From Eledone cirrhosa (taxonomy: Eukaryota), in NCBI GenBank assembly GCA_964016885.1, contig OZ024748.1, positions 42,098,001 through 42,162,000 on the forward strand: DNA of 64,000 nucleotides, written 5' to 3'. The notes under the pieces were generated by a model that had not been told where the DNA came from, did no database searches, and saw nothing but the letters and a program-made list of their open reading frames with translations. This document shows positions 39,705 through 41,223 of the stretch, in pieces; position 1 is the stretch's first letter; each line of letters opens with the position of its first letter. Position numbers and translations under genes: made by a program.

Positions 39705-39788
39705 CGAGTAACTTCCGTTCGTATGGCTGCCGTTACAAGTTCGACACATGGGAACTGAGGAATCTTGAAAAAACATACTAAGTGCTGC
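39705..39788 (-). CDS. UBALD: UBA-like domain-containing protein (UBALD1/2, FAM100), coding exon 2
   Basis: tttcag|AALSMFFQDSSVPMCRTCNGSHTNGSYS|gtaag, 84 nt, phase 0/0; continues the family motif WQFE-(T/A)ALSxFFQ. Confidence 0.88.
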
Positions 39789-40042
39789 CTGAAATTAGAG
39801 GTTTTAGAATTAAATATTAATTAGATTAATTAATAGACATAATAGTATTAATAAACAATATTTAATTAGAGATATAGAGCAGGAATTAAAGCCGATATTA
39901 GCAGAGAGAGGAGGATGGGTAACGGTCATAAGATAAACAATTTATGCCATGTTTTTTTTTCTATATCTAGACAGAAGAATGTTGTTTTTATTTAGTCGAT
40001 GACATGGAGATAAATATATCAAGATTTATCTAAAAAACTCAC

Positions 40043-40150
40043 CTCGAATTGCCATTTAGCTGCTTGTAATAATTGTTTAGCTTGTTCAGCATGACATCCC
40101 GCAGCCAAAACAAACTGATTTATCATCACTTGTTGTTTTAAATTGTCCAT
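40043..40150 (-). CDS. UBALD: UBA-like domain-containing protein (UBALD1/2, FAM100), coding exon 1
   Basis: [36 protein letters not shown]|gtgag, 108 nt; close to the vertebrate UBALD N-terminus as I recall it ([36 protein letters not shown]). Too short to appear in the ORF track. Confidence 0.92.
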
Positions 40151-41135
40151 TTTTCGTTTGGGTACTAATGCCCCAGTAGTCACCTACTTCTGTTTCAATA
40201 TTCACAAAATGTTGTTGTTGTGGTGGTAGTAGTAGTAATAACAGTGGTGGTAGCAATAGTAATGGTGGTGGTAGTAGTAGTAGTGGTGGTAATGGTCGTG
40301 GTAGCAGTAATAATGGTGGTGGTACTAGTAGTAATAATAGTGATAGTAGTGGTGGTGTTAGTAGAAATAGTGATGGTGGTGTTGTTAGTAATAGGGATGG
40401 TGGTGGTGATGCTATCGGCGGTAGTAGTTTGGATAATAGTGCTGGTGGTGGCGGAGGTAGTAGCAATAGTGATGGCGGTGGAGGTGTTAGTAGTAATATC
40501 AATGGTGGTGGTGGTGTTAGTAGTAATATCAATAGTGGTAGTGGTGTTAGTAGTAATATCAATAGTGGTGGTGTTGCAGTGATTGACAACACAGTTTACA
40601 AGCTTCACCCTTGGAATATGTTGTTGTGGTGCATTGATTGCCAACACAGTTTGTAAGGCCTGTTTTCATTGGTCAATAGCTATTATGCTATTCAAAATGT
40701 TGATGTTAATGTATATTCCATTAATTAAACTTCTCCCCACTGCAAACATATCTCGCATAGAAATATATCAGAAAAAGGAAGAAGAAGCTTTTAAAAGAAT
40801 TTAATTTAAAATTAGTTATTTTTTAATATGTTTGTAATGATTCAGTAACAATATTTAAAATTAAAATTTTAAAGATAATTATATCTATTTTTGATTAAGA
40901 TCTATATTTTTTGTCAACTTCTCATATTTTCTCGTGTTTGTGTGATGTAGTGAGGTGACGTCTGCTGTGTAGGCGCCATTATGTTGACTAGCAAGTAATA
41001 TATTGTATCAATGTCAATGTCGTCTTCTTTTCCTTCTTATGCTTAACATATTCAACATGCCCAAGTCTTCTTGCATTTACTGATATGTTTATATATACCG
41101 AAAGTTTAAAGACATTTACACTGTAGGATATTAAA
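40151..41135. promoter_or_regulatory. Putative bidirectional promoter and 5' UTRs of the UBALD and MGRN1-like genes
   Basis: Divergent start codons 986 bp apart; CRE-like GTGACGTC at about 40955 and YY1-like GCGCCATT at about 40973. Confidence 0.55.
40210..40580. repeat. (GGT/AGT/AAT)n trinucleotide-rich tract upstream of the UBALD ATG
   Basis: Direct reading; explains the poly-V, poly-T and poly-P ORFs. Confidence 0.85.
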
Positions 41136-41223
41136 ATGGGCTCTCTTGTGAGTAGGAGAAACACAGGCTCGGATGTTGTGGATTATGCTAATAATAATGC
41201 TTATAGATACCCTCCCAAATCAG
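41136..41223 (+). CDS. MGRN1: Mahogunin/RNF157-like E3 ubiquitin ligase, exon 1
   Basis: MGSLVSRRNTGSDVVDYANNNAYRYPPKSG|gt; N-myristoylation-type MGxxxS start and the conserved AYRYPPKSG. Confidence 0.92.

What the first reader, a model, noticed from the sequence alone, without database searches (positions are those of the whole stretch)
39705..41223. Hidden UBALD gene head-to-head with MGRN1/RNF157: vertebrate gene pair conserved in a probable cephalopod
Seen: two short minus-strand exons encoding a UBA-like protein (exon 1 absent from the ORF track), with its ATG 986 bp from the E3 ligase ATG. Established: human UBALD1 lies divergently next to MGRN1, and UBALD2 next to RNF157. Inference: the pair predates the protostome-deuterostome split and survived heavy coleoid genome rearrangement. 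That suggests a shared bidirectional promoter and possibly an uncharacterised functional module of a UBA-like adaptor plus a myristoylated RING E3.
Basis: partly seen in the sequence, partly recalled or inferred. Interest (0 to 1): 0.75.

Follow-up and report, generated by a model that had tools for sequence, protein, structure and literature searches.

The report
Ancient UBALD–MGRN1 head-to-head gene pair
Two ordinary ubiquitin-related genes sit head-to-head in this octopus-like genome as the remnant of a gene block already published as ancient in animals; they likely stay together because they share one short promoter, and nothing found suggests that their proteins work as a unit.

Summary
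Observation confirmed. Two spliced minus-strand exons (40150-40043, 39788-39705) encode UBALD/FAM100, 63 of 64 residues identical to the annotated Octopus protein. Its ATG lies 986 bp from the ATG of an MGRN1/RNF157 orthologue. Spliced contigs of both genes begin at most 746 bp apart. Exon 3 is transcribed but was not found in the assembly.

The ancient linkage is real but in print. Simakov et al. 2013 name FAM100, MGRN, FoxJ and Exoc7 in their figure of conserved clusters and tabulate a matching block in human, amphioxus and Capitella. Touceda-Suarez et al. 2020 list FOXJ1=RNF157 and FOXJ1=UBALD2.

Added here: in this genome the block is split, with a FoxJ1-like gene and Exoc7 on C6 and UBALD-MGRN1 on C8, so FoxJ1 regulation does not hold this pair. 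Three annelid-like contigs keep it head-to-head at 471-543 bp. It is not obligatory: 0 of 12 loci with 5 kb or more upstream show MGRN1, and Pinctada has the genes on different contigs.

Best reading: a shared short promoter (inferred, 0.6). A protein module is unsupported (0.08). Low interest.

The parts
40043..40150 (-). UBALD (FAM100) coding exon 1, 36 aa, first two helices of the UBA-like domain
   Evidence: UBA_8 E 2.7e-14; spliced contig
39789..40042 (-). UBALD intron 1, 254 nt, GT..AG, phase 0
   Evidence: table 5 (skips 254, CT..AC on +)
39705..39788 (-). UBALD coding exon 2, 28 aa, end of the UBA-like domain plus a CxxC-bearing linker
40151..40202 (-). UBALD 5' UTR covered by the spliced contig; 56 further contig bases fall outside what could be laid (repeat-masked 40203-40411)
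   Evidence: table 8
40203..40947 (.). Gap between the two transcript contigs, at most 746 bp: trinucleotide repeats (40203-40580), then an AT-rich core with one CCAAT-type match; inferred shared promoter
   Evidence: promoter function inferred
40948..41135 (+). MGRN1/RNF157 5' UTR covered by a spliced contig
41136..41223 (+). MGRN1/RNF157 coding exon 1; Gly2, Arg7, Arg8 at the positions whose mutation is predicted to abolish N-myristoylation of mouse MGRN1
   Evidence: legend passage
44420..44538 (+). MGRN1/RNF157 exon 2
54131..57058 (+). MGRN1/RNF157 middle exons (54131-54219, about 54834-54992, 55676-55975 in two pieces, to 57058)
   Evidence: tblastn; only the first has its splice sites checked
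58084..58311 (+). MGRN1/RNF157 RING exon (C3HC4)
59084..60035 (+). MGRN1/RNF157 exons after the RING; the gene runs on past the window to about G000:C8:42,180,070
20027..20226 (.). 200-N gap between long TA-rich microsatellites; likely place of the unassembled UBALD exon 3 (inferred)
   Evidence: exon 3 not found

Best explanation
This is the single-copy octopod UBALD gene lying head-to-head with the MGRN1/RNF157 gene, a two-gene remnant of the published ancient Exoc7-FoxJ1-MGRN-FAM100 block, likely kept together by one short promoter region that serves both genes. Shown: gene identities, splicing, divergent geometry, transcript contigs starting at most 746 bp apart, the split from FoxJ1-like/Exoc7 in this genome, and the same geometry in three annelid-like contigs. 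Inferred: both starts draw on one open-chromatin region, so a break between them would cost one gene its promoter, and the sub-kilobase gap is a small target for breaks in any case. The constraint is on transcription, not on the proteins: where the pair has broken, UBALD persists, in at least one insect-like locus with an unrelated divergent neighbour. MGRN1 would act through its known membrane adapters (MEGF8, ATRN); UBALD is predicted to be a separate small ubiquitin-binding protein (three-helix UBA-like domain, then a disordered TP-rich tail).
For: Geometry and splicing. Head-to-head at 471, 513 and 543 bp ATG-to-ATG in L007, L010, L024, which are 3 of 32 genomic loci with 1 kb or more upstream (3 of 15 distinct exon-1 peptides) among 72 loci. 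Annotation records for 15 lophotrochozoan species: consecutive or near-consecutive identifiers in 6 (O. vulgaris, O. bimaculoides, Lingula, Potamilus, Sinanodonta, Magallana), equal contig length under 3 Mb in 2 more (Argonauta, Lottia), equal chromosome length only in 5, uninformative in 1, different contigs in 1. Published block. Split from FoxJ1: Exo70 and a FoxJ1-like forkhead gene lie 63 kb apart on C6; no forkhead hit in about 204 kb around the pair. Class behaviour: 54.8% of ancient conserved pairs are 5'-5' in human, 68.6% in Lottia, with raised co-expression (PMC3514665). Strict CCAAT-type motifs twice in L010 (p 0.003) and L024 (p 0.023), once in the window (p 0.14), none in L007 (several motifs tested, no correction).
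Against: No start-site, chromatin or co-expression data: all runs were contigs, one spliced run only. The four intergenic regions share no alignable sequence beyond 11-16 nt matches. The motif signal in the window itself is within chance, apart from one palindromic GC element inside the MGRN1 5' UTR. The pair is lost or stretched often: 0 of 12 genomic loci with 5 kb or more upstream (7 distinct peptides) show MGRN1. Vertebrate gaps are recalled as several to about 25 kb, longer than a classic bidirectional promoter. The pair is not in the table of 52 best co-expressed head-to-head pairs of Touceda-Suarez 2020 (Table S2; no hit there). Accession and contig-length evidence gives no orientation.
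Confidence: 0.6

Rival explanations
1. Passive retention: the genes have independent promoters and stay adjacent only because a 0.5-1 kb gap is rarely hit by a rearrangement.
For: Short gaps; repeated loss without loss of either gene (Pinctada); no conserved intergenic sequence; Simakov 2013 expects 157 of 469 blocks by chance under a simple model.
Against: The gap stayed under 1 kb in a 3-Gb genome where this same gene has introns of 3.2 and 9.6 kb and repeats fill the flanks. Both vertebrate ohnologue pairs are adjacent in gene lists.
Confidence: 0.22
2. FoxJ1 regulatory block: UBALD and MGRN1 are bystanders that carry FoxJ1 enhancers, and the pair is kept for that reason.
For: Published as putative blocks FOXJ1=RNF157 and FOXJ1=UBALD2; forkhead, PTHR22996 and an unannotated gene lie together in human, amphioxus and Capitella. 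It may explain the origin of the four-gene block.
Against: In this genome the FoxJ1-like gene and Exoc7 are on C6 and the pair on C8. In Lottia the published forkhead-Exo70 block lacks PTHR22996 while UBALD and MGRN1 share a contig length of 2.87 Mb. Human MGRN1 and UBALD1 are listed as unlinked to FOXJ1.
Confidence: 0.06
3. Protein module: UBALD is a ubiquitin-binding cofactor or substrate of MGRN1/RNF157, and linkage keeps their doses matched.
For: Both are ubiquitin-system proteins; both were kept as ohnologue pairs; UBALD has an invariant PxNTPATPPxFP motif and a short predicted helix at residues 78-86 that could bind a partner; UBALD1 is classed as a dark gene.
Against: UBALD is not among nine MGRN1-specific co-IP/MS interactors in NIH/3T3 cells (PMC12752501; a 120-170 aa protein could be missed, supplement unreadable). 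It is not mentioned in the main text of the MMM structure preprint. The 6 and 4 papers that co-mention the gene names show no sign of a functional link in their listings, and the two opened are gene lists. The linkage is dispensable in several lineages.
Confidence: 0.08
4. Assembly artefact or truncated pseudogene: the UBALD exons are a fragment placed next to MGRN1 by mis-assembly.
For: Exon 3 is not found in G000; a gap lies 19.5 kb downstream; no single contig piece spans the whole intergenic region because repeats were skipped.
Against: A spliced 867-nt contig carries exons 1, 2 and the start of exon 3 in frame; Octopus vulgaris has consecutive accessions for the two genes; DNA-like contigs cover 39652-40202 and 40412-42371 without differences.
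Confidence: 0.02

Closest known systems
Exoc7-FoxJ-MGRN-FAM100 conserved cluster (Simakov et al. 2013, PMC4085046, Fig. 5 and supplement 2.5)
   Same: Same gene families; all four in one ancestral linkage group; a forkhead + PTHR22996 + unannotated-gene block in human chr17, amphioxus and Capitella.
   Different: Here only UBALD-MGRN1 remain together; FoxJ1-like and Exoc7 are on another chromosome. No cephalopod is among the species in the rows read. I saw the legend and table rows, not the figure; reading PTHR22996 as MGRN (recalled) and 'No Panther' as FAM100 is my inference.
Putative genomic regulatory blocks FOXJ1=RNF157 and FOXJ1=UBALD2 (Touceda-Suarez et al. 2020, PMC7530604, Table S1 rows 96-97)
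   Same: Same bystander genes, conserved in 2 of 5 non-vertebrate species (code 10100; likely amphioxus and sea urchin, order inferred from the methods list).
   Different: That table frames both genes as FoxJ1 bystanders; in this genome they persist as a pair without FoxJ1.
Conserved ancestral microsyntenic pairs in 5'-5' orientation (Irimia et al. 2012, PMC3514665), e.g. HSPD1-HSPE1
   Same: Unrelated genes, divergent, short gap, linked across phyla.
   Different: HSPD1-HSPE1 has a shown bidirectional promoter, strong co-expression and one protein machine; none of these is shown for UBALD-MGRN1. Whether this pair is among the ~595 could not be checked (supplement unreadable).
Human UBALD1/UBALD2 (FAM100A/B) and MGRN1/RNF157
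   Same: UBA-like domain (2dzl); RING E3 with Gly2/Arg7/Arg8 N-terminus.
   Different: Single-copy here, outside the vertebrate UBALD1+2 clade; lophotrochozoan UBALD carries a CxxC-x3-H linker absent from the fish sequence aligned.

Membership tests
UBALD/FAM100 family | N-terminal UBA-like domain (PF22566 UBA_8) | tested here: met
   53 bits against cut-off 26; three helices at pLDDT about 90 in the model of the Octopus homologue; best fold hit 2dzl
UBALD/FAM100 family | PxNTPATPPxFP motif after the domain | tested here: met
   start of the motif is in the loose end of the spliced contig; invariant in 45 homologues; not found in the assembly
UBALD/FAM100 family | Orthology: single copy, sister to vertebrate UBALD1+UBALD2 | tested here: met
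   one match in G000 (lower bound); tree of 27 rows groups it with Octopus and Argonauta 99/97, vertebrates as one clade 100/100
UBALD/FAM100 family | Binds ubiquitin | not testable with these tools
   fold likeness to UBA domains only
MGRN1/RNF157 E3 ligases | C3HC4 RING preceded by the conserved N-terminal region | tested here: met
   (most exons 85-100% identical to Octopus MGRN1-like)
MGRN1/RNF157 E3 ligases | N-myristoylation motif (Gly2, Arg7, Arg8) | tested here: met
   residues present, compared with the mutant described; the modification itself is not shown
Ancient conserved microsyntenic pair | Unrelated genes adjacent in several distant lineages | tested here: met
   published rows
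Bidirectional (head-to-head) promoter pair | Divergent genes with start sites within 1 kb | tested here: met
   contigs begin at most 746 bp apart; contig ends only bound the true starts
Bidirectional (head-to-head) promoter pair | One regulatory region drives both genes; co-expression above matched neighbours | not testable with these tools
   no raw RNA reads or chromatin data offered
Bidirectional (head-to-head) promoter pair | Typical motifs (CCAAT, ETS, YY1, GC box; motifs recalled) | tested here: inconclusive
   CCAAT-type enriched in 2 of 4 intergenic regions, not in the window
FoxJ1 genomic regulatory block | FoxJ1 within one or two genes of the bystanders | tested here: not met
   FoxJ1-like gene (signature recalled, supported by Exoc7 63 kb away) on C6; pair on C8; next gene after MGRN1 is SGT1/ECD-like
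E3 ligase-adaptor module | Physical binding of UBALD to MGRN1/RNF157 | not tested

The most novel reading that the evidence does not exclude
UBALD is the missing soluble cofactor of MGRN1/RNF157: its UBA-like domain holds ubiquitin and its invariant TP-rich motif and helix dock on the ligase, and the pair outlived its FoxJ1 block in molluscs because one promoter keeps the two at matched dose.
Probability: 0.08. Interest if true: 0.65.

Novelty: already known. Interest (0 to 1): 0.2.

Why it matters
As it stands it is one more instance of a published ancient gene block, in genes already annotated side by side in Octopus. The modest addition is a natural dissection: the four-gene block has split into FoxJ1-like/Exoc7 and UBALD-MGRN1, so this pair can persist without FoxJ1 regulation. 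That makes its gap of at most 746 bp a compact place to test why ancient head-to-head pairs persist. It would matter more only if UBALD, a protein with no established function, proved to be a cofactor of MGRN1, the ligase that controls Smoothened and melanocortin receptor levels.

Tried and rejected
Complex prediction of UBALD with MGRN1 was not available; nothing was folded, so there is no verdict on binding. No RNA holder was listed as such; run X4 was read as RNA only because its contigs are spliced. Contig depths were not used. UBALD exon 3 was sought by protein, C-terminal part and a 30-base pattern with 0 and 2 mismatches in G000, and in 140 kb of flanks: not found. The atlas could not read the forkhead exon and the PDB search listed no FoxJ1 chain, so the FoxJ1 label rests on a recalled signature plus the Exoc7 neighbour. 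RefSeq numbers for Liolophura, Gigantopelta, Argopecten and O. sinensis are far apart and were treated as uninformative. Spider and hemichordate records gave no usable same-species pair. Pfam scanning covered 145 chosen ORFs, not all ORFs, of the flanks and loci. The Schmidbaur 2022 supplement shows no row naming the pair (Pfam labels only, three or more genes per block; 2 of 8 PF13920 rows not viewed). Supplements of Irimia 2012 and of the MGRN1 co-IP paper could not be read; either may bear on novelty or binding, as may those of the bioRxiv structure preprint. Paper searches for UBALD function gave no functional study in their listings. Earlier-finding look-ups returned nothing. Cnidarian adjacency is not shown: the Nematostella block row has Exo70, an unannotated gene and rhomboid, without PTHR22996.

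Full report
Observation. The window is G000:C8:42,098,001-42,162,000 of a 3.0-Gb genome. On the minus strand, 40150-40043 encodes 36 residues from an ATG to a GT donor and passes the Pfam UBA_8 cut-off (E 2.7e-14). A second exon, 39788-39705, has AG and GT ends in phase 0. [quoted passage not shown] A tree of 27 rows places the window sequence with Octopus and Argonauta (99/97), outside a vertebrate UBALD1+UBALD2 clade (100/100). On the plus strand an MGRN1/RNF157 orthologue starts at 41136, with its RING exon at 58084-58311 and its end about 18 kb past the window. The ATGs are 986 bp apart.

Transcripts. Of four runs listed, none on record as RNA, X4 has spliced contigs. One joins UBALD exons 1 and 2 across the 254-nt intron and continues into exon 3; it reaches at least 40202. 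The other starts at 40948 and joins MGRN1 exons 1 and 2. The two transcripts therefore begin at most 746 bp apart; contigs cannot give exact starts or levels. Exon 3 was not found in G000 by protein or by a 30-base pattern nor in 140 kb of flanks. A 200-N gap among long microsatellites at 20027-20226 is its likely place (inferred).

How widespread. A scan of metagenome contigs gave 72 loci with UBALD exon 1, 53 of them genomic. Three (L007, L010, L024; two closest to annelid UBALD, L007 about equally close to mollusc sequences) carry MGRN1 exon 1 head-to-head at 471, 513 and 543 bp. They are 3 of 32 genomic loci with 1 kb or more upstream, or 3 of 15 distinct exon-1 peptides. None of the 12 loci with 5 kb or more upstream (7 distinct peptides, annelid-like and arthropod-like, one unplaced) shows MGRN1. 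One insect-like locus has a ribosomal S18 gene on the opposite strand about 2 kb upstream instead. Annotation records allowed a comparison in 15 lophotrochozoan species: identifiers are consecutive or nearly so in 6 (O. vulgaris CAI9735225/226-231; O. bimaculoides 11 apart; Lingula XP_013395501/503; Potamilus CHS0354_013033/034; Sinanodonta KAL3875617/616; Magallana XP_011456292/289-290), contig lengths under 3 Mb are equal in 2 more (Argonauta, Lottia), chromosome lengths are equal in 5, O. sinensis is uninformative, and Pinctada has the genes on contigs of 102 and 67 Mb. This is indirect and gives no orientation.

What is in print. Simakov et al. 2013 (PMC4085046; passages, Fig. 5 legend and supplement rows seen, figure not seen) name FAM100, MGRN E3 ligase, FoxJ and Exoc7 among their example conserved clusters. 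Their supplement puts MGRN1/RNF157, FAM100A/B, FOXJ1 and EXOC7 in one ancestral linkage group and lists a block of forkhead, PTHR22996 and an unannotated gene in human chr17, amphioxus and Capitella. I read PTHR22996 as the mahogunin family from recall and the unannotated gene as FAM100 by inference. Touceda-Suarez et al. 2020 (PMC7530604; passages, supplementary methods and table rows seen) list FOXJ1=RNF157, FOXJ1=UBALD2 and FOXJ1=EXOC7 as ancient pairs. Survival in a coleoid is unremarkable: 275 metazoan microsyntenies are retained in Euprymna (PMC9023564, passages). Searches for UBALD1+MGRN1 and UBALD2+RNF157 gave 6 and 4 papers (listings); the two opened show only gene lists from goat selection scans. 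The vertebrate head-to-head orientation is recalled, not tested.

What this locus adds. Of 21 forkhead matches in G000 (a lower bound), the only ones on C8 lie 32 Mb from the pair and look like FoxK (label recalled). A FoxJ1-like gene (signature recalled) is on C6 at 76.90-76.92 Mb, 63 kb from Exo70. No forkhead match lies in about 204 kb around the pair, and the next gene after MGRN1 is SGT1/ECD-like. The four-gene block has therefore split in two. The published Lottia row (Exo70, PTHR13361, forkhead) suggests that the split is older than cephalopods.

Mechanism. The best reading is a shared short promoter (0.6). Shown: divergent geometry, starts within 746 bp, sub-kilobase gaps in four lophotrochozoan loci, independence from FoxJ1. 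From established work: ancient pairs are enriched for 5'-5' orientation, short gaps and co-expression (PMC3514665, passages). Inferred: one regulatory region drives both genes. Against it: no intergenic sequence is conserved, CCAAT-type motifs are enriched in only 2 of 4 regions and not in the window, and the pair breaks often. Passive retention of a small gap (0.22) cannot be excluded. The FoxJ1 block (0.06) fails here.

Verdict. Real and correctly read by the first stage, but a known ancient linkage. Novelty: already known. Interest 0.2.

Noticed in passing
window 20027-20226: 200-N gap flanked by kilobases of TA/TACA microsatellite; UBALD exon 3 and the 3' UTR are transcribed but were not found in the assembly, so annotation of this genome would truncate the gene.
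   Followed up: partly
G000:C6:76,826,357-76,924,094: Exo70 (Exoc7) and a FoxJ1-like forkhead gene 63 kb apart on the same strand: the other half of the ancient block.
   Followed up: partly
window 39705-39788: UBALD exon 2 adds a C-x2-C-x3-H linker followed by the conserved Cys of exon 3 (C51, C54, H58, C66 in P0005), present in most lophotrochozoan rows and not in the fish row; a possible metal site, low confidence in the model.
   Followed up: no
window 44170-44222: Near-exact duplicate of the MGRN1 exon 2 acceptor and its first 12 bases, about 210 bp upstream of the used one; the spliced contig uses the downstream site.
   Followed up: partly
window 40203-40580: GGT/AGT trinucleotide tract with three ~30-nt repeats between the two genes, at or near the UBALD 5' UTR.
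   Followed up: no
window 43925-44122 and 44831-45000: Very high-copy short interspersed repeat, many copies across the window (depth).
   Followed up: no
window 48100-49360 and 24260-25980: Tandem satellites, about 39-nt units inside MGRN1 intron 2 and about 33-nt units downstream of UBALD exon 2.
   Followed up: no
window 14394-15413; L084, L085, L088, L090, L092: Reverse transcriptase, integrase and DDE transposase fragments fill the flanks.
   Followed up: no
L091:1111-1494, L093:1151-1516: SGT1/ECD-like exons: the next gene downstream of MGRN1, same strand.
   Followed up: no
L044:7499-7933 (-), L056:4740-5324 (-): In arthropod-like loci UBALD has other divergent neighbours: a ribosomal protein S18 gene about 2 kb away and an RIIa-domain gene about 3.4 kb away.
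   Followed up: partly
L065:1-4134 (+): Open frame of 1378 codons without a Pfam match upstream of UBALD in an arthropod-like contig.
   Followed up: no
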